A DNA stretch of 64,000 nt, taken from the NCBI GenBank assembly GCA_028704015.1, contig JAQVLT010000003.1, positions 36,997-100,996 of the forward strand, read 5' to 3'. The notes below the pieces were generated by a model. That model was not told the DNA's origin and ran no database searches. It was given only the letters and a program-made list of their open reading frames with translations. Within the stretch, counting starts at the first letter, position 1; every line of letters begins with the position of its first letter. Of the stretch, positions 5,740 through 49,946 are shown piece by piece. Both the position numbers and the translations under genes were made by a program. The stretch comes from Patescibacteria group bacterium. Lineage in GTDB: Bacteria > Patescibacteriota > Patescibacteriia > Patescibacteriales > JAQVLT01.

Positions 5740-6090
5740 CTATACTAATTCTAATTGCACCACTTCGGCACCATCGCCTTTTCTATCACCCAATTTAATA
5801 ATTCTGGTATAGCCGCCTTTTTTGTCTTTATATTTAGCTCCTAAAACTTCCATGGCTTTTTTTATCGCCATTTTCTGCGGTAAAATCTGAATTAATTGGC
5901 GTCTGGCAGATAAGTCTCCTTTTTTGGCAATCGTAATAATTTTTTCTACCAACGGCTTAACTGCTTTTGCCTTTGCGGATGTAGTTTTTACTTTTTCGTA
6001 AATTAAAACGCTTGACGCCAAATTTCTCAGCATCAATTCCCTCGGTGCTTTTTTTCTGTCTAAAATTACTCCTTTATTTCCATGTCTCAT
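5740..6090 (-). CDS. rplQ: 50S ribosomal protein L17
   Basis: MRHGNKGVILDRKKAPR...GGYTRIIKLGDRKGDGA...LELV. Confidence 0.92.
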   Translation of the reverse strand: MRHGNKGVILDRKKAPRELMLRNLASSVLIYEKVKTTSAKAKAVKPLVEKIITIAKKGDLSARRQLIQILPQKMAIKKAMEVLGAKYKDKKGGYTRIIKLGDRKGDGAEVVQLELV

Positions 6091-6107: not shown

Positions 6108-6929
6108 TTAAGATTTCTTTGGGCGACCGCGCCTTTTCTTTTCTGTAGTAAGTTCCTCGGAAACCGACTCAGCATCCTCCTCGATAGATTCCTCTTCAAC
6201 TTTTTCTTCTTCAATATTTTGCGCTTTTTTTTCAACTTCCTCGCCCAACAAAGCGTTAAATTGGTTAATTAATATTTGCGCTGAATCTTCAAAAGCTTTT
6301 TGCGGAGTAATAGTGCCGTCAGTCACAATGTCCAATATCAACTTGTCCCAATTGGTCATTTTGCCGACGCGCATGCTATCTACTGAGATACCGACAGAAA
6401 CAACCGGAGAAAAAATTGAATCCATATCAATATGACCGATCTCATGCTTTTTTTCTTCTATACTTTCTATTGAGCGATAACCGCGTCCACGGCTCACATA
6501 GATTTCCATATTCAAACTGCCGGCCATGTCAGTAATATGCGCCAAAATTAAATCCGGATTAACAATTTCTACTTCGCTATTTTTAGTAATATCGCCCGCT
6601 TTTACTTCTTTCGCGCCATGCGCATTTAATTCTAATTTTATTTCTTCGTCGCTTTCAGAAAATATTTTTAAGCGCAATTGTTTCAAATTTAAAATAATAT
6701 CTAAAACATCTTCTTTGACGTGCGGCAAAGACATAAACTCATGATCAACTCCCTTTATCTTAACGCTCACTACCGCGGCGCCAGGCAAAGAAGAAAGCAA
6801 CACCCGCCTCAAAGAATTACCCAGAGTTGTGCCATAACCAGGATAGCACGGTTCAACCGTAACAATCCCCTGATTAGCACTTTCTCCGGCTTTAAATTCT
6901 ATTTTTTTAGGCAAAACGATGTCGTTCAT
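6108..6929 (-). CDS. rpoA: RNA polymerase alpha subunit: NTD only, with an acidic tail and AT-hook
   Basis: NTD motifs GNSLRRVLLSSLPGAAV. The ORF track starts at 6959, but ATG at 6929 (MNDIVLPKKIEF) matches the usual N-terminus. C-terminus is EE-rich and ends KKRRGRPKKS. Confidence 0.9.
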   Translation of the reverse strand: MNDIVLPKKIEFKAGESANQGIVTVEPCYPGYGTTLGNSLRRVLLSSLPGAAVVSVKIKGVDHEFMSLPHVKEDVLDIILNLKQLRLKIFSESDEEIKLELNAHGAKEVKAGDITKNSEVEIVNPDLILAHITDMAGSLNMEIYVSRGRGYRSIESIEEKKHEIGHIDMDSIFSPVVSVGISVDSMRVGKMTNWDKLILDIVTDGTITPQKAFEDSAQILINQFNALLGEEVEKKAQNIEEEKVEEESIEEDAESVSEELTTEKKRRGRPKKS

Positions 6930-7040
6930 AGAATGTAATTGGTGATTGGTAATTTGCAATTTGGCCGTATTTGCGGCTCTCCTCCAAAGCTTACCAAATT
7001 ACTGATTACAAATTACTAATTACTATTATATAAATAAAAA

Positions 7041-7698: not shown

Positions 7699-8304
7699 TT
7701 ATACTCTTCTTGGCTTCTTCGGACGGCAACCATTGTGAGGAATCGGAGTAATATCTTTGATTGAATTAATGTATAAACCATTAGCATTTAAAGCTCTTAC
7801 GGCTGATTCTCGGCCAGTACCAACTCCCTTTATAAAGGCGCTCACTTCTTCCAGGCCATAATCCTGACGCGCTTTTTCAACGGCTATTCTCGTAATAATG
7901 GAGGCGGCGTAAGGAGTTGATTTTTTTGCTCCTTTAAAACCGGCTATACCGGCGCTTGCCCATGAAAGGACATTGCCCTGTACATCAGTCAAGGTTACTA
8001 TCGTATTATTATAAGTGGCGTTAACAAAGGCCATGCCAATATTTGCTTTTCTCACAACTTTTTTCTTTTTCTTTTTGTATGATTTTTTTTCTGATTTATC
8101 ATTTTTTCTGCTTTCCAACTTTTTTCTAACTTCTTCCGGCAATTCTTCAAGTTCCGGTCCATTTTTCTGAGAAACATTTTCTTCAACTTCAAAATTTTCA
8201 TTTTCCTCAACATCAAACTGAGCTTCCTGGTTTGAAACTTCATCTTTTTTTATTTCGTCATTATTTTGTGTATCTTTTTCTTCAGTCATATAAATATAAT
8301 TCAA
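7699..8304 (-). CDS. rpsK: 30S ribosomal protein S11 with a long acidic N-terminal extension
   Basis: Core [18 protein letters not shown]...[13 protein letters not shown]. About 70 extra N-terminal residues rich in E/D/K. Confidence 0.9.
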
Positions 8305-9140: not shown

Positions 9141-9224
9141 AAAACTTGGTAAAATTTAAAAATTTACCAAAATTTTGGTAATTACTACGATTTATTAAAT
9201 ATTATTTATAGTTACGTAAAAATA

Positions 9225-9253
9225 ATTATATATGCTCATCAATTTATTGTCAA
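9225..9253 (-). promoter_or_regulatory. consensus sigma70-type promoter for the infA-rpsI operon
   Basis: Minus strand reads TTGACA (9253-9248), a 17-nt spacer, then TATAAT (9230-9225). Confidence 0.55.
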
Positions 9254-13027: not shown

Positions 13028-15649
13028 CTATTTTTCTATTACCATCGCGTAATATTTATCTACATTCAAAACGTCTTCAATGTGCCAGCCGTTTTCACTG
13101 ACTTTTGAACTAACCGGATATTTCCAGACGGCGCGCAAATTTGCCGGCAAAAATAAATTGGAAATAATCTTATCGCCAATTGATCCTGGTTGTTTTTGAA
13201 CAAATAACGAATAAGGCAATAAACTTTTCTGGTCGGGATTTAACAAATTTTCTATTTTTCCGAACCAACCCGCATCATCCCGAGGAGCTTCTTTGATTGT
13301 AAATGGTAATTTGTATTTGAGCACAACTGTTTTTATTTCTCCCGGCTCAAGCATAAACCAATTGGCAAAAACTGTTTTTCCATTCTCATTGTAAATTTTT
13401 GTTTTATTTTCTTCGTCAATTCGCGCTAAATTTTCCGTCTGAGCAATAAAAGGATCAACGCTCAATGATTCTTCTGGCTGTTTAGCGATATATTCTTTTT
13501 CATCCAGCTCGCTAAAACCCTCAGCGGATAAAAGTTCGCTCCCAGCCGGCACATAAACTCTCATCCAATCTAAATTTCGCACGCCGGTGAACAAATCTCC
13601 GCGGCTGGCATTGTGTTTTCTTGTAATCACCACGGTGTCAATAATGCTTCCATCATCGGCTATTTCCGCTTGGTGATTTATTGTTTCGTCAATCACTTTG
13701 TCGCTTTTCTGCCCGTAAATATTGGTATTAACAACTGATAAATAATCCCATTTGTTTTCTTCCATTTTTCCATCCCAACCGCGTTGGGCGATTTCTTTTT
13801 CCAATTTTTCATCAGTAAAATAAAATAAAATATGTTTTTCATTCAAATTGCCTTCTATTGCTTTTAAAATTTCAACGAATTTGTCCTTGTTATTGATTCT
13901 CTTTGGCAATTCAACGAGAATAGCATCCATTAAATCGCGGATAATTTCCTTGGGTTTAGCTTTGTCAACCTCAACTTTTCCGGAGGTGGAATCTTTTAAT
14001 TTGTCCAATTCTTCTTCACTTAAATTTCCCGCTTCAACTATTTTCTGAGTAGTATCCCAAAAATTATCCGCGTCAATCACCACGCCATATTTGGCCGTCA
14101 TATCAATCGGGCCGAGTACTCTTAAAATTCTCTCTAATACTGTCGGGGTAAAACTGATCACACCATCAACGGTCGGGCCATCGCTTTTTTCATAAAACCA
14201 TTTCAGCTTCTCCGCGCTGGTCGGCCAATCAGGCCACCAATTCGCATTCCAAAAAAACCAGCGCGTCCCAATAAGCCAAAATGGTTCGGGCGCCAAAACT
14301 GATTCTCTAAGCCCGGCCGTAGTGTCATAACTCCCGCCAGCCGGAGCTTCAATATTTTTTATTTTTCCATTTTGAAAATCTACGAGCGCGTAACTGCCGA
14401 CAAAACCGCCCGAACCGCGCATTTCGGAATTATTTTGAAAAACTAACAAATAACGTTTATTGCCGGCAACACCTAAAAATTCTTTGAGCTTTTCAGAAAT
14501 CAAAATAAAATCTCCCAAGCCGGCTTCCAGATCGGCTGATTTATTTCTCAAAAAAATAAACTGCTCTCTGTATTCAATGGGTAAAACATCAATATCAATC
14601 TGCGATAAATGACTATTCAAACTCGCGGCCGCTTCACGTGATTTTTCTCCATATAAAACAAAATTATCTAAAATTTTTGCCATGTCTTTCTCGCCACCTG
14701 AAAATAAACTTTGCAAAGCTAAACTCATATTTTCACCCAAAATGGCGGCATTCTCGCCGGCGGCGAGCATTTCTCGACTATAAGCGGCCAAACGCGCTTC
14801 GTCGCTAGGCGCATAAGCTGCTAATCTAAAAAGCAAACTGTTTATTTCTCCAAGCTCTTTTTCAGCTGAAAAAAATTTCTCACTTGCTTCGGAAAAATTG
14901 TTTGAAGCTTTATTAAAATCCAGATTCATCACGTCTTTGGAGCCATTAATAAAACTGGAAAAACCCGCTTCGGAAGCTAACACGACTTTATTTTTTAAGT
15001 CGCTTAAATTTATAGTTTTATAAAAATCTAAAAATTTAAAAGGCAAAATGATGATGAGCAGAAGTAAAGCGAATTTGAAAATTCCCTTGAAGGAATGTTT
15101 TTTATTGTCATTCTGATCCCGCTCTAGCGGGAGAAGAATCTCGGGTTTATCTATAAATTTCTTTGATTTAGCTTTTGCGTTTAGTATTGTCTCTCGCGCT
15201 TTCTGAGATCCCTGCCTGCCGGCAGGCAGGCTTCGTCCTCTGTTTGCGACCAGAGGATTCAGGATGACAATCGCTTTTTTTATCATTTTCCCCACCCACT
15301 TAACCAAAAATACCGGCGCAAAAATAACGCCATAAAAAAAATATTTTAAATAAACAAAAATATTCCTGCAAAAAATTTTTATTCCGGAAAAAACCCGGGA
15401 AACTTTTTCGACTAAAATTTTGAATAAACCAAAAAACTTTTTAAATAAAACAAAAATAATAAATATCTTGGCAAAAAACTTGAAAACGTTAATAAATATT
15501 TCTTTAAAATCAACATGAACTTTTGAACTATTTTTATGTTTTGATGCTTTAATGTTCTCGCGCGGTTTCAAATCCACAACAAATCTAGACGCTCGATCAT
15601 TTGCGCCAATATTAAAACTGCTAGATTGTTTATCTTTTCCGACAAGCAT
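13028..15649 (-). CDS. DUF4012-like large membrane-anchored protein
   Basis: 873 aa. RYLLVFQNNSEMRGSGGFVGSYA resembles the DUF4012 core. Contains the 168-nt element at 15104-15271. Confidence 0.65.
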   Translation of the reverse strand: MLVGKDKQSSSFNIGANDRASRFVVDLKPRENIKASKHKNSSKVHVDFKEIFINVFKFFAKIFIIFVLFKKFFGLFKILVEKVSRVFSGIKIFCRNIFVYLKYFFYGVIFAPVFLVKWVGKMIKKAIVILNPLVANRGRSLPAGRQGSQKARETILNAKAKSKKFIDKPEILLPLERDQNDNKKHSFKGIFKFALLLLIIILPFKFLDFYKTINLSDLKNKVVLASEAGFSSFINGSKDVMNLDFNKASNNFSEASEKFFSAEKELGEINSLLFRLAAYAPSDEARLAAYSREMLAAGENAAILGENMSLALQSLFSGGEKDMAKILDNFVLYGEKSREAAASLNSHLSQIDIDVLPIEYREQFIFLRNKSADLEAGLGDFILISEKLKEFLGVAGNKRYLLVFQNNSEMRGSGGFVGSYALVDFQNGKIKNIEAPAGGSYDTTAGLRESVLAPEPFWLIGTRWFFWNANWWPDWPTSAEKLKWFYEKSDGPTVDGVISFTPTVLERILRVLGPIDMTAKYGVVIDADNFWDTTQKIVEAGNLSEEELDKLKDSTSGKVEVDKAKPKEIIRDLMDAILVELPKRINNKDKFVEILKAIEGNLNEKHILFYFTDEKLEKEIAQRGWDGKMEENKWDYLSVVNTNIYGQKSDKVIDETINHQAEIADDGSIIDTVVITRKHNASRGDLFTGVRNLDWMRVYVPAGSELLSAEGFSELDEKEYIAKQPEESLSVDPFIAQTENLARIDEENKTKIYNENGKTVFANWFMLEPGEIKTVVLKYKLPFTIKEAPRDDAGWFGKIENLLNPDQKSLLPYSLFVQKQPGSIGDKIISNLFLPANLRAVWKYPVSSKVSENGWHIEDVLNVDKYYAMVIEK
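15104..15271. mobile_element. 168-nt MITE-like element inserted in frame
   Basis: TIRs ATTGTCATTCTGA and TCAGGATGACAAT (12/13 match). Internal GATCCCTGCCTGCCGGCAGGCAGG at 15207-15230. Same architecture as 18263-18420. Confidence 0.65.
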
Positions 15650-23349: not shown

Positions 23350-23549
23350 AGAAATCAGTAAAATAGTAAACAGTAATTAGTAAATAATAATTTATCTACC
23401 ATTTACTAATTACTGTCTGTTATTTACTAAATATTATACCCCACTTTTTTTCCTTTGACAATTTAGAAAAAATAATTTATATTATTTATATAAAAACAGT
23501 GTCCATATTCACTGTATTTTTAATTAGAAATCAAACAAAATTAATTTTA

Positions 23550-23633
23550 GCCGAAGTGGCGAAACTGGTAGACGCGCACGACTCAAAATCGTGTGGAAGC
23601 AATTCCATGAGAGTTCGATTCTCTCCTTCGGCA
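23550..23633 (+). tRNA. tRNA-Leu(CAA), type II with a long variable arm
   Basis: Hand-folded. Acceptor GCCGAAG/CTTCGGC, anticodon stem CACGA/TCGTG with loop CTCAAAA, T-arm GAGAG-TTCGATT-CTCTC. No encoded CCA. Confidence 0.9.
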
Positions 23634-24185: not shown

Positions 24186-25805
24186 ATGAAGAATGAAAAA
24201 AAACCGGAAAAGGTTGCCTTGTTGAGCGTTTTCAACAAGGACGGGATTGTGGAGTTTGCTCGCACCCTCAAGAACATGGGCTGGAAACTTCTTGCTTCCG
24301 GGGGCACGGCGCAGACGCTCAAAAACGCCGGGCTGGAAGTCAAGGATGTCGCGGACCTGGTCGGCGGCGGCGCTATTCTTGGACACCGCGTGGTCACGCT
24401 CTCACGGGAAATCCACGCCGGCCTTTTGGCGCGTGACATCCCTGAGGACAACGCGGAGCTGGACCGGCTGGGGATCCCGCGCATCGATCTTCTTTGCTCG
24501 GATCTCTACCCGCTTGAGCTGGCCATTGCCGCAGGTAAAACCATGCCCGAGGTCATTGAGATGACCGACATCGGCGGACCCACGCTGATCCGTTCGGCGG
24601 CAAAAGGCCGCCGTATTGTCATCTGCAACCCAAGGGACCGCATGGTTGTTCTCGGCTGGATGACCAGCGGCGAGCTGGACAAGGAAAGCTTCTTAAACAT
24701 GCTTGCCGCCAAAGCCGAAATGACCGTCGCCCGCTACGCACTATCTTCGGCGCGTTTCATCAGCGGCGGCGAGTTCGACGGTTTCCTCGGCCAACGCTAT
24801 CTTGAATGCCTATACGGGGAAAACGCCCCGCAGACTCCGGCCGGCGTCTTTAGCGCCCGTACAAGCGACCTGCTGGCGCTGGACAAACTCCGGCTCTTGA
24901 CCGAAACGTCGTCAAGCTACAACAATACGTGCGACCATGACCGGCTGCTCCAGACAATCACGCACATCGCCGCCGGCTTTGACCTCAACTTCGGCGAAGT
25001 GCCATATATCGCCGTGGCGGTCAAACACGGCAATCCCTGCGGCGTTGGCGTTGGAAAGACGCCGGAAGAAGCTCTCAAGAAGATGATTGACGGCGATCTT
25101 CGCGCCATTCTCGGCGGCATCGTCATGACCAACTTCCTGATAGACGAGACGGCCGCGAAAATCCTGGCCGTCTACCAGGTGCCCGTAAGGAAAAGGCGCT
25201 TGCTGGACGGGATTATCTGCCCGGTCATCACAGATAAGGCCGTTGCGATGCTCGAACGGAAAAAAGCCAAATGCCGGATTCTCATGAACCCTGCTCTAGC
25301 GGAACTGAACGAGAAATCACTGGACACGGCTCCCCGCCTTCGCTGCGTCCGCGGCGGATTTATGGTTCAGCCGAACTACACTTTCATTCTGGATCTGAAC
25401 CACCCGGAAATGAAAAAGTTCGGCCAGGCCACGCCTGAACAGAAACGCGCTATGGTGCTTGCCTGGGCTATCGCAGCCACGGCCAACAGCAACACCATCG
25501 CGCTTGTGAAGGACGGCATGCTTGTCGGCCTGGGATCTGGCCAGCAAGACCGTGTCGGCGCTTGCAAGGTGGCCTGTTTCCGAGCTGACGAATCCGGCCA
25601 TGACATCTTTGGGGCGATTGCGGCAAGCGATAGCTTCTTCCCCTTTGATGATGGCCCGCGCGCCCTTGCCGACAGGGGCGTCAAGGTGATCTTTTCTACC
25701 TCTGGCTCGATCAACGACCAAGCGGTCATTGACTTCTGCCAGGAAAACGGCATCGTGCTCTACATGCTTCCGGACAAGGTGGCCAGGGGTTTCTTCGGCC
25801 ACTAA
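24186..25805 (+). CDS. purH: bifunctional AICAR transformylase / IMP cyclohydrolase
   Basis: 539 aa. MGS-like N-terminus ALLSVFNKDGIVEFARTL..LASGGTAQTL and AICARFT domain. SD GGAGT upstream. GC-rich. Confidence 0.9.
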   Translation: MKNEKKPEKVALLSVFNKDGIVEFARTLKNMGWKLLASGGTAQTLKNAGLEVKDVADLVGGGAILGHRVVTLSREIHAGLLARDIPEDNAELDRLGIPRIDLLCSDLYPLELAIAAGKTMPEVIEMTDIGGPTLIRSAAKGRRIVICNPRDRMVVLGWMTSGELDKESFLNMLAAKAEMTVARYALSSARFISGGEFDGFLGQRYLECLYGENAPQTPAGVFSARTSDLLALDKLRLLTETSSSYNNTCDHDRLLQTITHIAAGFDLNFGEVPYIAVAVKHGNPCGVGVGKTPEEALKKMIDGDLRAILGGIVMTNFLIDETAAKILAVYQVPVRKRRLLDGIICPVITDKAVAMLERKKAKCRILMNPALAELNEKSLDTAPRLRCVRGGFMVQPNYTFILDLNHPEMKKFGQATPEQKRAMVLAWAIAATANSNTIALVKDGMLVGLGSGQQDRVGACKVACFRADESGHDIFGAIAASDSFFPFDDGPRALADRGVKVIFSTSGSINDQAVIDFCQENGIVLYMLPDKVARGFFGH

Positions 25806-25829
25806 TCAAAATTCTTTTAATCCTCCAGC

Positions 25830-25876
25830 AGGACTTTCAAAGTTTCTTACGAGAAACTACGAAAGTCCTTTTTTTC
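25830..25876 (+). terminator. hairpin AGGACTTTC...GAAAGTCCT plus T7
   Basis: Read directly after purH. Confidence 0.6.
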
Positions 25877-26024
25877 TTGCTTTTTTCTTAAAATTTATCT
25901 AATATAAAGTTAGAAAGGAGGGCCAATCTTATCGTAAGATTCGGCTCTTTTTGCACCTTGAAAAAATCGATTTTGAAAACCGTAGAGATAAACTGACAAC
26001 CCCTCAACGGAAAGGACTGATGCA

Positions 26025-27509
26025 ATGGACGAACGGTATACCATAGAAAAAATTACGAAAATCTGGTCGACTGAGAACAAGCTCAGTCTCTGGCAAAAAA
26101 CCGAACTCATGGCAATCAAAGCCAGGGTGATTCTCGGCCTTGTCGCCGAGACGATTTTCCTGAAGATCGAGGAAACGCTCAAGCGAATCCCGATTGACAT
26201 CCCGTGGTGGAAAAACCGCGACAAAGAGATCCGCCACGACCTTAACGCCTTTCTCGATGAGAGACTCCGTCACCTGACCGAGGAATTACAGCGCTACCTG
26301 CACGAGGACATGACCTCCTACGATACGGAGGAACCGGCTTTTGTGTGCATGCTCAGGGAGTCAGTGCAGATTGTCATCAGGAGTCTGGAAGAAGTCTGCA
26401 AAACTCTGAAAGCAATGGCACTCAAATACCGCTACACAATCATGAACGCCAGAACCCACGGACAGGAAGCCAAGCTGCAAAGCTTTGGTAAAAGATGCCT
26501 TACCTGGTACGTGATTTTGCAATTAGACCTCAACAACCTGAAGAATACGGTCAGTTCTCTCAAGTATGCCAAGCTTTCCGGCGCTGCCGGGAACTACGGC
26601 GACATGGATCCGGCGGTGGAGATCGAAACTCTGAAACAGCTTGGATTCGAACCGCTCTACGGCACACCCCAGATCCTTCCCCGCGAGCTTTTTGCTCCAC
26701 TGGCGCAAGCGCTCTGCCAGATCGTGCAGTCGTTGGACAAAATCGCGACCGATATTAGATTAGGCGCGCGTAGTGGACGGCCGATCTTGCAAGAGCCGTT
26801 CGGAAAAAAGCAAAAGGGCTCTTCCGCCATGCCGCATAAAAAAAACACCATCCGCACCGAGCAGATGGAAGGCATGGCGCGCATGGCGCGCGGCTACATG
26901 AATATGATCCTGGAAGCGATCAAAACCTGGGAAGAACGGGCTATTGAACAATCCTGCGTGGAAAGAGTGGCCTGGCCTGATCTCTTCCATGTGGTCGTTC
27001 ATTCACTGAAAACCATGAACGCAGTACTAACCGGCCTAACCGTTTATCCCGACAATATGCTTCTGGAAATCGCTGATTCCTGCGGAACTTACGCTTCGGA
27101 AGAAGCAAAAAAGCTTCTCCGGGAATTCCTGGCGGAACGCGGATTGTCAAGCGAAGTGGCCTACCGTATCGTGCAACTCGCCGCCTTCAATGCTCTGGAA
27201 CTTAGCGGCGGTTTCCAAAGATTGCGTGATGGCATTCCTTCAACGATAGAAGAAGCGGAAGTGGCGTTAAAGGAAGCTTCTAGTTTGGATCGACCAAGGA
27301 GAGAAAGCATCCAGGACATCATCCCTTTAGGCCATTTGCGCCACTCACCCCAACTCGAAGCTACCGAGAAAGAAATCGAGGGATGGAACGTGATGCTGTT
27401 CACCATCTTCTCGAGTCGCAGAATTCGCGATCGCTGGAACCAAATCTTCCGGCCGTCATACCAGCTAAGACGCGAACCTTTTCTCTACGAAAAGATACTT
27501 GGAAAATAA
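26025..27509 (+). CDS. purB: adenylosuccinate lyase
   Basis: Fumarate-lyase signature GSSAMPHKKNT. N-terminus RYTIEKITKIWSTENK. Confidence 0.9.
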   Translation: MDERYTIEKITKIWSTENKLSLWQKTELMAIKARVILGLVAETIFLKIEETLKRIPIDIPWWKNRDKEIRHDLNAFLDERLRHLTEELQRYLHEDMTSYDTEEPAFVCMLRESVQIVIRSLEEVCKTLKAMALKYRYTIMNARTHGQEAKLQSFGKRCLTWYVILQLDLNNLKNTVSSLKYAKLSGAAGNYGDMDPAVEIETLKQLGFEPLYGTPQILPRELFAPLAQALCQIVQSLDKIATDIRLGARSGRPILQEPFGKKQKGSSAMPHKKNTIRTEQMEGMARMARGYMNMILEAIKTWEERAIEQSCVERVAWPDLFHVVVHSLKTMNAVLTGLTVYPDNMLLEIADSCGTYASEEAKKLLREFLAERGLSSEVAYRIVQLAAFNALELSGGFQRLRDGIPSTIEEAEVALKEASSLDRPRRESIQDIIPLGHLRHSPQLEATEKEIEGWNVMLFTIFSSRRIRDRWNQIFRPSYQLRREPFLYEKILGK

Positions 27510-28096: not shown

Positions 28097-28987
28097 ATGA
28101 TCCAGCCCCTGTTCGAAACCAACTTTCCCGGCCTTCCCGTTCCTCGTCGCGGCAAAGTCCGCGACATCTATGACCTAGGTGATTTTCTGCTCATGGTCGC
28201 CACTGACCGGCTATCAGCTTTCGACGTGGTCATGAAGGACCCGATCCCAGGTAAAGGCATTACCCTCACGCAGATGACCTTGTTCTGGCTGGAAATGTTC
28301 GCAGATATGGTGTTGAACCACTTGGTTACGGCTGATCCCGCCCAGTACCCGGACATCTGCAAACCCTACGCCGACATTCTTGTCGGCCGCAGCATGCTGG
28401 TCAAAAAATGTGCGCCCCTGCCAGTGGAATGCATCGTCCGCGGCTACCTTAGCGGTTCCGGCTGGAATGATTACAAAAAGACCGGATGCGTCTGCGGCAT
28501 CCAGCTTCCGCCCGGCCTTCTGGAATCGGCGCAGCTTCCTGAACCGATTTTCACGCCTTCTACCAAGGCTGAGCAGGGCAAGCACGACGAGAACATTTTG
28601 TTTGAACAAGCAGTAAAACTACTCAGCCGCGAGACCGCAGAAAAAATCCAAAAACTCTCACTCGCGCTCTACCAACGGGCCGCGGCTCATGCCCGCAGAC
28701 GCGGCATCATCATAGCGGACACGAAATTCGAGTTCGGGCTTGATAAAGACGGCAACATCGTGCTGATAGACGAGGTTCTCACCTCGGATTCATCCAGGTT
28801 TTGGCCCGCCGCCCAATACGAACCCGGACATGGCCAGCCGAGCTTTGACAAACAAGGCGTCCGCGACTTTCTGGTTAAGATCGGCTGGGACAAAAAGCCG
28901 CCTGCACCCAAACTCCCGATCGGCGTCATCGCCGAGACGCGCGAGAAGTACCTGAAGGCTCTCCGCCTCCTCACCGGCCAATTCTAA
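28097..28987 (+). CDS. purC: SAICAR synthetase
   Basis: GKVRDIYD, LIDEVLTSDSSRFW. Confidence 0.92.
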   Translation: MIQPLFETNFPGLPVPRRGKVRDIYDLGDFLLMVATDRLSAFDVVMKDPIPGKGITLTQMTLFWLEMFADMVLNHLVTADPAQYPDICKPYADILVGRSMLVKKCAPLPVECIVRGYLSGSGWNDYKKTGCVCGIQLPPGLLESAQLPEPIFTPSTKAEQGKHDENILFEQAVKLLSRETAEKIQKLSLALYQRAAAHARRRGIIIADTKFEFGLDKDGNIVLIDEVLTSDSSRFWPAAQYEPGHGQPSFDKQGVRDFLVKIGWDKKPPAPKLPIGVIAETREKYLKALRLLTGQF

Positions 28988-49424: not shown

Positions 49425-49487
49425 TTTTTTATTTTTTCTCTCCTTTTAATAAGGAGAGATTTAAATGAGACTTTAAATTTCACTAAT

Positions 49488-49946
49488 CTCAAGGCAAGCT
49501 ATAAGCCGGATTCTGTCTAGGACAATCATCTATCTTGTCCAGCGATTGCTCGCGGGATCATGCGAACTACTTTTCTTTACCATTTCCTTCATCCCCTCTC
49601 CTTCACAAGGAGAGGGTTAGGGTGAGGTAAATTTGTTCTTGCTTCAAGCAGGGTTTACCATCCACGGCTGTCACCAGCCGAAAAAAATTGTAGCCATTTA
49701 TCTAGAACAAATGACATCAATTAACTTTTCACCTTTCTTTTTGACTTACAATAGATTAAGATAAATCTTAAATCTAAAATCGTAAATCAAAAATAGTATA
49801 GTCTCTGTGGCACTTTCCCTAAGATTACTCCTGGTTGCTGTTAGCAACTGCTTTTTTATTTTTAGCGATTTAATTCGCAAAAATGAAGTCCGGACTTTCC
49901 TCCCCGTCTTTCAATGAAAAACGGAGCGATTGTCTACTTACCTTGA
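49488..49946 (-). ncRNA. rnpB: RNase P RNA (bacterial type A-like)
   Basis: Minus strand has GAGGAAAGTCCGGAC (49902-49888), AGTGCCACAGAGA, GGTAAACCC..AGCAAG..CAAAT and ACAGAATCCGGCTTA (49516-49502). P1 pairs CAAGGTAAG with CTTGCCTTG. The ends are approximate. Confidence 0.85.

What the first reader, a model, noticed from the sequence alone, without database searches (positions are those of the whole stretch)
6108..6255. RpoA lacks the alpha-CTD and ends in an acidic linker plus a canonical AT-hook
After a normal alpha-NTD, the protein ends with EEVEKKAQNIEEEKVEEESIEEDAESVSEELTTEKKRRGRPKKS. There is no helix-hairpin-helix CTD of about 85 aa as in E. coli alpha. The last residues, KRRGRPKK, match the AT-hook core (R-G-R-P flanked by basic residues), a minor-groove binder of A/T tracts. 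The alpha-CTD normally contacts A/T-rich UP elements in the minor groove. An AT-hook tail could therefore be a minimal functional replacement in this very AT-rich genome.
Basis: partly seen in the sequence, partly recalled or inferred. Interest (0 to 1): 0.65.

Follow-up and report, generated by a model that had tools for sequence, protein, structure and literature searches.

The report
RNA polymerase alpha with AT-hook tail
In this uncultivated Patescibacteria (Falkowbacteria-like) genome, the RNA polymerase alpha subunit has lost its usual DNA- and activator-binding C-terminal domain and ends instead in a floppy acidic linker and one strictly conserved AT-hook, so a whole bacterial clade probably contacts promoter-upstream DNA in a different, minimal way.

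Summary
rpoA (6108-6929, minus strand, 273 aa) encodes a normal alpha N-terminal domain, a 34-aa acidic linker and the tail KKRRGRPKKS. It has no alpha-CTD. rplQ starts 17 nt after the stop codon, so a frameshift cannot restore a CTD, and two independent assemblies carry identical DNA.

The tail is under strong selection. In 126 distinct relatives G-R-P is invariant and the flanking K/R are nearly so. The hook always lies 3-8 residues from the C-terminus, after a variable linker, and is spelled with many synonymous codons.

The loss is clade-wide. None of 80 Falkowbacteria-like species representatives has a CTD: 21 end in the AT-hook, 53 in a lysine-rich cluster and 6 in neither. More distant Patescibacteria keep the CTD.

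My best reading is that a flexibly tethered basic peptide, two per polymerase, replaces the DNA-anchoring role of the alpha-CTD. The AT-hook version probably prefers the A/T minor groove. DNA binding and UP-element use were not shown, and the promoter tests here were weak or inconclusive. A stand-alone CTD elsewhere in the genome could not be excluded. I found no published description. I rate it a new variant of a known kind, of moderately high interest.

The parts
6108..6929 (-). rpoA coding sequence (273 aa plus stop codon at 6108-6110): the RNA polymerase alpha subunit without an alpha-CTD
   Evidence: ORF and translation. Pfam finds PF01000 and PF01193 only. NCBIfam NF003519 scores 279.4 (cut-off 277) and TIGR02027 scores 259.5 (cut-off 227.8). 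It is 100% identical to P0001, named 'DNA-directed RNA polymerase subunit alpha [Patescibacteria group bacterium]'. It sits in the canonical order infA-rpsM-rpsK-rpsD-rpoA-rplQ-rplM-rpsI.
6243..6929 (-). Alpha N-terminal domain (residues 1-229): dimerisation and core-assembly domain
   Evidence: Pfam RNA_pol_L covers residues 36-234 of the 283-aa ORF and RNA_pol_A_bac covers 66-184. The AlphaFold2 model has pLDDT above 90 for residues about 1-230. Solved alpha subunits align here with E about 1e-55.
6141..6242 (-). Acidic, variable, predicted-disordered linker (residues 230-263, EEVEKKAQNIEEEKVEEESIEEDAESVSEELTTE)
   Evidence: Translation. pLDDT is 40-51. No column reaches a majority consensus across 86 homologues. 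In 124 AT-hook relatives the linker is 27-84 aa long (median 40) and 35% D/E. It is about 40% D/E in both hook-type and Lys-type species representatives.
6111..6140 (-). C-terminal basic tail KKRRGRPKKS with a single AT-hook (core G268-R269-P270 at 6120-6128)
   Evidence: Sequence. In 126 distinct relatives G, R and P are 126/126, R at -1 is 125/126, K/R at +3 is 126/126 and K at +4 is 125/126. The hook always lies 3-8 residues from the C-terminus. There are 20 different DNA spellings of RGRP(K/R) in 21 genomes. The tail matches Pfam AT_hook PF02178 positions 1-12 of 13, but this was detectable only when the tail was artificially duplicated.
5740..6090 (-). rplQ (ribosomal protein L17), the next gene, starting 17 nt after the rpoA stop; it bounds the space available for any CTD
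   Evidence: ORF list and sequence. Pfam Ribosomal_L17 on the identical contigs.
9225..9253 (-). Context: perfect sigma-70-type promoter TTGACA-17-TATAAT upstream of infA.
   Evidence: Promoter scan gives 12/12. Sequence. The perfect consensus is kept in 57 of 66 related loci.

Best explanation
In this Falkowbacteria-like lineage of Patescibacteria, the helix-hairpin-helix alpha-CTD has been lost. What replaces it is a minimal module: an intrinsically disordered acidic linker of about 35-40 residues ending in one AT-hook (KKRGRPKK).

Alpha is a dimer in core RNA polymerase, so each polymerase would carry two such tethered hooks.

The inferred mechanism has three elements. First, the hooks insert into the minor groove of A/T-rich DNA upstream of the -35 element. 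Second, this anchors the enzyme on DNA, accelerating and stabilising promoter binding, as the flexibly tethered alpha-CTDs do at UP elements and on non-specific DNA. Third, the acidic linker keeps the tether extended and off the DNA, and may damp non-specific sticking.

The activator-docking role of the alpha-CTD would simply be absent.

What is shown: the architecture, the absence of a CTD, the predicted disorder, strong purifying selection on the hook, the clade-wide distribution, and the interchange of the hook with lysine-rich tails.

What is inferred: DNA binding, the A/T minor-groove preference, the position upstream of promoters, and the effect on initiation.
For: 1. No CTD is present. 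Pfam and NCBIfam match the N-terminal domain only. A profile that recognises 91 CTD-bearing relatives finds nothing at E<0.3 in six frames of the window plus 80 related loci, 558 kb in total.

2. The tail is predicted disordered (pLDDT 40-51) while the N-terminal domain is above 90.

3. Selection acts on the peptide. KKRGRPKK is essentially invariant in 126 distinct proteins, always at the very C-terminus, while the linker varies in sequence and length. Synonymous codons vary freely.

4. The pattern is clade-wide. 105 of the 120 closest protein clusters have the hook and none has PF03118. Of 80 species representatives, 0 have a CTD, 21 have the hook and 53 have a Lys-rich tail, with the same median length (272 aa) and the same acidic linker in both types.

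5. In a neighbour-joining tree of the N-terminal domains, a 132-tip clade around the query has no CTD, and hook and Lys-rich tails interleave. The shared property is therefore a tethered basic, DNA-binding-type peptide.

6. There is a precedent. Myxococcus CarD is an RNAP-binding domain followed by an acidic segment and RGRP AT-hooks that bind DNA. That paper's reference list cites Garcia-Heras et al. [quoted passage not shown]

7. The physics is plausible. Single-molecule work reports that the two tethered alpha-CTDs speed RNAP-DNA association about 55-fold, and proposes that any small flexibly tethered DNA binder would do so (bioRxiv 10.64898/2026.07.21.739884).

8. There are weak promoter hints. 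At the orthologous infA promoter, positions -62 to -38 are 74% A+T in 16 hook-type genomes against 63% in 50 others, at equal locus A+T (Mann-Whitney P=0.0016, not corrected for phylogeny). The tRNA-Leu promoter has a T7 tract at about -45 to -39 and AAATATTAT at about -62 to -54.
Against: There is no experimental or structural evidence that this tail binds DNA.

A single AT-hook binds weakly on its own; by established knowledge of HMGA proteins, high affinity needs two or three hooks or a partner domain. Pfam does not score one copy above threshold.

The in-window promoter test is not significant: upstream A+T is 0.81 against 0.73 for intergenic background, n=6, P about 0.13. Other strong promoters in related loci show no difference between groups, but there are only 4 against 15 sites.

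The infA comparison is confounded. In many Lys-type genomes the upstream gene ends within about 25 nt of the -35 box, and the genomes are phylogenetically non-independent.

Most sister species have Lys-rich tails with no GRP, so A/T-specific reading is not the conserved feature. Six of the 80 have neither tail type.

Only 64 kb of this genome was available, so a CTD supplied in trans cannot be excluded.
Confidence: 0.5

Rival explanations
1. The tail is a purely electrostatic, sequence-non-specific tether to DNA or the nucleoid. It raises the local DNA concentration for the polymerase but gives no UP-element-like promoter discrimination. On this view the AT-hook is just one spelling of a short basic tail.
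For: 53 of 80 species representatives carry KKxKKxKK-type tails instead of the hook, with the same linker and the same total length. Hook and Lys-rich tails interleave in the tree. Genome A+T does not differ between the two types. The in-window promoter test is not significant. The tether-acceleration effect was measured on non-promoter DNA.
Against: A generic basic tail would not need invariant G-R-P with invariant flanks across 126 proteins and many synonymous spellings. That degree of constraint implies a specific binding geometry. There is also a hint of more A/T-rich DNA upstream of the infA promoter in hook-type genomes.
Confidence: 0.3
2. The tail is not a DNA anchor. It binds RNA (AT-hook-like peptides can bind structured RNA) or serves as a short linear docking motif for another protein such as a regulator, sigma factor or nucleoid protein. 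The acidic linker may act as a DNA or RNA mimic.
For: This rests mainly on general knowledge that extended AT-hooks can bind RNA and that disordered tails often carry docking motifs. The strict invariance of an 8-residue motif is also typical of peptide-protein interfaces. No DNA-binding data exist for this tail.
Against: Repeated exchange with featureless Lys-rich tails is hard to reconcile with a specific protein-docking motif. The position on alpha, at the end of a flexible linker, is exactly where the DNA-binding CTD normally sits. The CarD precedent links the acidic-plus-AT-hook arrangement to DNA binding.
Confidence: 0.1
3. The alpha-CTD function is retained but encoded elsewhere, as a split gene or stand-alone CTD protein, or supplied by a second full-length rpoA. 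The tail would then be an accessory.
For: Only about 64 kb of the genome and about 6.7 kb around rpoA in each of 80 relatives could be searched, so absence genome-wide is untested.
Against: There is no CTD-like segment in 558 kb of six-frame translation and no tblastn hit in the window. rpoA sits in the canonical operon position in all relatives. The C-terminal tail itself is under strong selection, which would be unexpected for a mere truncation remnant.
Confidence: 0.06
4. The feature is an artefact: a frameshift, premature stop or mis-assembly truncates a normal rpoA.
For: None found.
Against: Identical DNA occurs in two independent assemblies plus the NCBI MAG. rplQ starts 17 nt downstream. 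The same architecture is seen in more than 200 related sequences from many studies.
Confidence: 0.01

Closest known systems
Canonical bacterial RNA polymerase alpha subunit (E. coli or B. subtilis RpoA: NTD, flexible linker, alpha-CTD)
   Same: It has an orthologous N-terminal dimerisation and assembly domain, the same operon position before rplQ, and a flexible linker leading to a C-terminal element. That element sits where the DNA- and UP-element-binding domain normally is.
   Different: The roughly 85-aa helix-hairpin-helix alpha-CTD (PF03118) is absent. The linker is longer and strongly acidic (34 aa here, median 40). The C-terminal element is a 10-residue disordered basic peptide with one AT-hook. 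The CTD surfaces used by activators and by sigma region 4 cannot exist.
Myxococcus xanthus CarD (CarD_CdnL_TRCF N-terminal RNAP-binding domain plus HMGA-like C-terminal region)
   Same: An RNAP-associated folded domain is followed by an intrinsically disordered acidic segment and then basic RGRP AT-hook(s) that bind DNA. A paper cited there (Garcia-Heras et al. 2009, by its title) reports histone H1-like and HMGA-type domains as functionally equivalent in a bacterial transcription factor (PMC4374960). This mirrors the hook versus Lys-tail interchange seen here.
   Different: CarD is a separate factor that binds the beta subunit and has four AT-hooks in a tail of about 140 residues. Here a single hook is fused directly to a core subunit, two copies per enzyme, and it replaces a pre-existing DNA-binding domain. 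There is no sequence homology beyond the motif.
Eukaryotic HMGA proteins / the AT-hook motif (Pfam PF02178)
   Same: It has the core R-G-R-P flanked by Lys/Arg, an intrinsically disordered context and an adjacent acidic stretch.
   Different: There is one hook rather than three. The acidic part precedes rather than follows the hook. The host is bacterial, and the motif is attached to RNA polymerase itself. DNA binding is untested.
Lys-rich-tailed, CTD-less RpoA of sister Falkowbacteria/Parcubacteria lineages
   Same: They share the N-terminal domain, the acidic linker and the overall length (median 272 aa), lack a CTD, and end in a short basic cluster.
   Different: The terminal cluster is KKEKKEKKxKKTKK-like without G-R-P. 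It is presumably a non-specific electrostatic DNA binder.

Membership tests
Bacterial RNA polymerase alpha subunit (RpoA) | N-terminal dimerisation/assembly domain (Pfam PF01193 with inserted PF01000) | tested here: met
   PF01000 E=1.1e-30 and PF01193 E=2.6e-19. AlphaFold2 pLDDT is above 90 over residues 1-230.
Bacterial RNA polymerase alpha subunit (RpoA) | Equivalog-level match to curated rpoA models | tested here: met
   NF003519 scores 279.4 against a cut-off of 277, and TIGR02027 scores 259.5 against 227.8. Both align only to profile positions up to 253 and 234.
Bacterial RNA polymerase alpha subunit (RpoA) | Conserved operon context rpsM-rpsK-rpsD-rpoA-rplQ | tested here: met
   Gene calls on identical contigs and window ORFs.
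Bacterial RNA polymerase alpha subunit (RpoA) | C-terminal helix-hairpin-helix domain (alpha-CTD, PF03118) | tested here: not met
   No PF03118 hit at E<=1. None of the 120 closest clusters carries PF03118. A custom CTD profile gives no hit.
AT-hook motif (Pfam PF02178 / HMGA-type) | Core G-R-P preceded by R and flanked by Lys/Arg | tested here: met
   KKRRGRPKKS. The consensus KKRGRPKK is nearly invariant in 126 sequences.
AT-hook motif (Pfam PF02178 / HMGA-type) | Score above the Pfam gathering threshold | tested here: inconclusive
   A single copy is not reported by hmmscan. An artificial tandem of two tails scores 20.4 bits against a cut-off of 17.4, matching profile positions 1-12 of 13. 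The motif is too short for one copy to be significant alone.
AT-hook motif (Pfam PF02178 / HMGA-type) | Intrinsically disordered context | tested here: met
   pLDDT is 40-51 for residues 231-273. The linker is low-complexity, variable and acidic.
AT-hook motif (Pfam PF02178 / HMGA-type) | Binds the minor groove of A/T-rich DNA | not testable with these tools
   This requires gel-shift, footprinting or NMR experiments. Only indirect and weak promoter-composition hints were obtained.
HMGA-like domain as in CarD | Multiple (3-4) AT-hook repeats | tested here: not met
   Exactly one GRP per protein in 126 of 126 sequences.
HMGA-like domain as in CarD | Acidic segment adjacent to the hooks, attached to an RNAP-associated domain | tested here: met
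   The acidic linker is 35-42% D/E and lies directly N-terminal of the hook. The CarD architecture is described in PMC4374960.

The most novel reading that the evidence does not exclude
A large clade of Patescibacteria (Falkowbacteria and neighbouring Parcubacteria) transcribes without any alpha-CTD. It has repeatedly swapped that near-universal domain for a 10-residue tethered basic peptide, either an AT-hook or a lysine cluster.

If so, the indispensable job of the alpha-CTD in these cells is only to act as a flexible DNA anchor. Class-I-type activation and sigma-CTD contacts would be dispensable. The AT-hook subclade would use a eukaryote-style minor-groove reader, built into the polymerase, as its UP-element sensor.
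Probability: 0.4. Interest if true: 0.8.

Novelty: new variant of a known kind. Interest (0 to 1): 0.66.

Why it matters
The alpha-CTD is regarded as a nearly universal part of bacterial RNA polymerase. It reads UP elements, is the docking site for many activators, and was recently reported to speed DNA association by more than an order of magnitude.

A clade-wide natural replacement by a 10-residue peptide on a disordered tether is a ready-made minimal system. It allows one to ask what the CTD is fundamentally needed for. It also says something about how little transcriptional regulation these ultra-small, host-dependent bacteria use. Finally, it gives a simple, portable module (acidic linker plus AT-hook) that could be grafted onto E. 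coli alpha(1-235) to test the tethered-anchor model directly.

It also matters for annotation. These proteins are labelled plain 'RNA polymerase subunit alpha', although they lack a defining domain.

Tried and rejected
1. Frameshift or sequencing error. Rejected: rplQ starts 17 nt after the stop, and independent assemblies carry identical DNA.

2. A separate alpha-CTD ORF nearby. tblastn with the E. coli and B. subtilis CTDs found nothing below E=0.1. A CTD profile HMM run on six-frame translations of the window plus 80 loci found nothing below E=0.3.

3. AT-hook as a common decoration in this genome. Rejected for the window: RpoA is the only real gene with a basic-flanked GRP.

4. UP-like A/T enrichment upstream of strong promoters in the window. 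Inconclusive: n=6, P about 0.13.

5. The same test on non-infA promoters in related loci. Too few sites (4 against 15) and no difference.

6. The infA promoter comparison between hook-type and other genomes gave a nominally significant difference. I treat it as a hint only, because of phylogenetic non-independence and confounding by upstream coding sequence.

7. Taxon names for distant Lys-tailed and hook-tailed cluster representatives. Mostly unnamed metagenome proteins.

8. Literature searches for CPR/Patescibacteria with alpha-CTD, rpoA and AT-hook returned nothing relevant.

9. Rfam scan of the window. No rRNA operon is present, so the classical UP-element test case, an rRNA promoter, is unavailable.

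Full report
**What is in the sequence**

The minus-strand ORF at 6108-6959 is rpoA. The start used by the identical NCBI protein P0001 is the ATG at 6929, which gives 273 aa.

Pfam finds only the two N-terminal-domain families, PF01000 and PF01193. It finds no alpha-CTD family, PF03118, even at E<=1. NCBIfam rpoA equivalogs match, but only over profile positions up to about 253 of 298-344. All solved alpha subunits in the PDB align only to query residues up to about 260.

An AlphaFold2 model built on 86 homologues is confident for residues 1-230 (pLDDT above 90). It drops to 40-51 for residues 231-273. The C-terminal 43 residues are therefore predicted to be disordered rather than a cryptic domain.

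**It is not an artefact**

rplQ starts at 6090, 17 nt after the rpoA stop. No reading-frame change here could add an 85-residue domain.

The same rpoA DNA is present in contigs assembled independently from two sequencing runs. Both show the gene order infA-rpsM-rpsK-rpsD-rpoA-rplQ-rplM-rpsI.

tblastn with the E. coli and B. subtilis alpha-CTDs finds nothing in the window. I also built a CTD profile that recognises 91 CTD-bearing relatives. It finds nothing at E<0.3 in the six-frame translation of the window plus 80 related loci, 558 kb in total.

**Conservation**

All 120 closest protein clusters (60-83% identity) lack PF03118. Of these, 105 end in the AT-hook and the rest in lysine-rich tails such as KKKSKKS.

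I pooled 126 distinct hook-bearing sequences and anchored them on GRP:
- The consensus is K-K-R-G-R-P-K-K.
- G, R and P are present in 126/126, R at -1 in 125/126, K/R at +3 in 126/126 and K at +4 in 125/126.
- There is exactly one hook per protein, 3-8 residues from the C-terminus.
- The preceding linker has no consensus, ranges from 27 to 84 residues (median 40) and is 35% Asp/Glu.

Among 21 species-representative genomes, the pentapeptide RGRP(K/R) is spelled with 20 different DNA sequences. The constraint therefore acts on the peptide, not on the DNA. Within the 64-kb window, RpoA is the only genuine gene with a basic-flanked GRP.

**Distribution**

A scan of species-representative genomes returned 80 loci. 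Those with informative titles are Candidatus Falkowbacteria, Parcubacteria or Patescibacteria MAGs.

None of the 80 encodes a CTD. Twenty-one end in the AT-hook, 53 in a lysine-rich cluster (for example KKEKKEKKEKVKKTKK) and 6 in neither. Hook-type and Lys-type proteins have the same median length (272 aa) and equally acidic linkers.

I also examined the 150 best 50%-identity representatives from a library of 1.8 billion proteins. Of these, 91 keep a normal CTD; two named examples are labelled Patescibacteria. About 40 have Lys-rich or acidic tails, and five clusters have the hook.

In a neighbour-joining tree of the N-terminal domains rooted on E. coli:
- The inferred root state is CTD.
- A 132-tip clade around the query contains no CTD (106 hook, 23 Lys-rich).
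- Hook and Lys-rich tails interleave within that clade.
- Isolated Lys-tailed proteins also appear among CTD-bearing branches.

This suggests repeated CTD loss and repeated hook/Lys exchange. A neighbour-joining tree of one 228-column domain is too weak to count events reliably.

**How it probably works**

The architecture is a folded RNAP-assembly domain, a long disordered tether and a very short basic peptide, present twice per enzyme. It sits exactly where the DNA-binding alpha-CTD normally sits.

By established knowledge, the AT-hook RGRP core binds the minor groove of A/T tracts. The alpha-CTD also contacts the A/T-rich UP element through the minor groove.

Two pieces of literature make it more so:
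- Myxococcus CarD combines an RNAP-binding domain with an acidic segment and RGRP hooks that bind DNA. That paper cites Garcia-Heras et al. [quoted passage not shown] This parallels the hook/Lys interchange seen here.
- A 2026 preprint reports that the two tethered alpha-CTDs accelerate RNAP-DNA association about 55-fold. It argues that any small, flexibly tethered DNA binder would do the same (10.64898/2026.07.21.739884).

I therefore favour a tethered DNA-anchor function, with the hook version adding A/T minor-groove preference. The activator-contact functions of the CTD would be lost.

**What is not shown**

DNA binding is untested. The promoter evidence is weak:
- The window holds a perfect TTGACA-17-TATAAT promoter upstream of infA (9253-9225).
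- For the six best promoter-like sites in the window, positions -62 to -38 average 81% A+T against 73% for intergenic DNA (P about 0.13).
- At the orthologous infA promoter, hook-type genomes are more A/T-rich upstream than the others (74% against 63%, at equal locus A+T; Mann-Whitney P=0.0016). The genomes are not independent, however, and in many Lys-type genomes the upstream gene ends almost at the -35 box.
- Other strong promoters in the loci are too few to test.
- The tRNA-Leu promoter has a T7 tract at about -45 to -39 and a further A/T block upstream. This is compatible with a UP-like element but does not prove one.

The premise of an 'AT-rich genome' is weak. The window is about 37% G+C, and hook-type and Lys-type genomes do not differ in A+T.

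**Comparison with known systems, and novelty**

The protein is a bona fide RpoA orthologue that fails one defining feature of the family, the alpha-CTD.

The tail meets the sequence definition of an AT-hook. A single copy is too short to pass the Pfam threshold; it was detected only when I duplicated it artificially.

It works like, but is not a member of, the HMGA/CarD type of domain: it has one hook rather than three or four.

Eight full-text searches combined rpoA, alpha-CTD, AT-hook and the CPR, Patescibacteria, Parcubacteria and Saccharibacteria names. They found no description of this architecture. The library does not cover most subscription journals, so prior mention cannot be excluded.

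I rate it a new variant of a known kind. It is real, conserved and clade-wide, and it would be surprising to transcription specialists. Its mechanism is inferred, not demonstrated.

Noticed in passing
window 24186-27509 (+), with 28097-28987 (+): A G+C-rich island (0.53 against about 0.37 elsewhere) carries purH-like (AICARFT_IMPCHas plus MGS) and purB-like (Lyase_1) genes, with purC (SAICAR_synt) next to it. These purine-synthesis genes were probably acquired horizontally by a CPR genome.
   Followed up: partly
window 7699-8304 (-): Ribosomal protein S11 carries an N-terminal extension of about 89 residues. The extension is acidic and then lysine-rich (...[14 protein letters not shown]) and precedes the Pfam S11 domain at residues 90-200. 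It has the same acidic-then-basic disordered style as the RpoA tail.
   Followed up: no
window 9225-9253 (-) and leader to about 9141; loci L001-L080: The infA promoter is a perfect TTGACA-17-TATAAT and stays perfect in 57 of 66 related genomes. It always lies about 90-185 nt upstream of infA. The leader in the window contains the perfect palindrome TTACCAAAATTTTGGTAA (about 9155-9172), which could be an operator, an attenuator or a structured leader.
   Followed up: partly
window 23455-23483 (+), upstream of tRNA-Leu at 23550: A promoter-like site TTGACA-17-TATATT lies upstream of tRNA-Leu. It has a T7 tract at about -45 to -39 and AAATATTAT at about -62 to -54. It lies back-to-back with a minus-strand promoter-like site at 23461 that has a 25-nt uninterrupted A/T run upstream.
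   Followed up: partly
proteins P0121 (569 aa), P0122 (526 aa), P0130 (475 aa), P0159 (664 aa): Some cluster representatives are much longer than RpoA and match the query in two stretches. P0130 still ends in KKRGRPKKS. They may be fusions with the upstream gene (for example S4-RpoA), tandem duplications or gene-calling read-through.
   Followed up: no
loci L001, L006, L009, L013, L014 and many others (record titles): Many clearly Patescibacteria-type loci come from 'binchicken' and SRP co-assembly MAGs whose record titles read 'uncultured Gammaproteobacteria bacterium', and one reads 'Bacillota bacterium'. These labels look wrong or are placeholders.
   Followed up: no
protein P0268 (349 aa): This CTD-bearing RpoA representative additionally ends in ...AAKRRGRKPSR, a basic, hook-like (but not GRP) C-terminal extension after the CTD. 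Basic tails may therefore also be added to intact alpha subunits.
   Followed up: no
window 13028-15649 (-): An 873-aa protein whose only Pfam match is DUF4012, a large protein of unknown function typical of CPR genomes.
   Followed up: no
window 49486-49945 (-): A full-length bacterial class A RNase P RNA (190 bits). It is the only non-tRNA Rfam match in the window; no rRNA operon is present.
   Followed up: no
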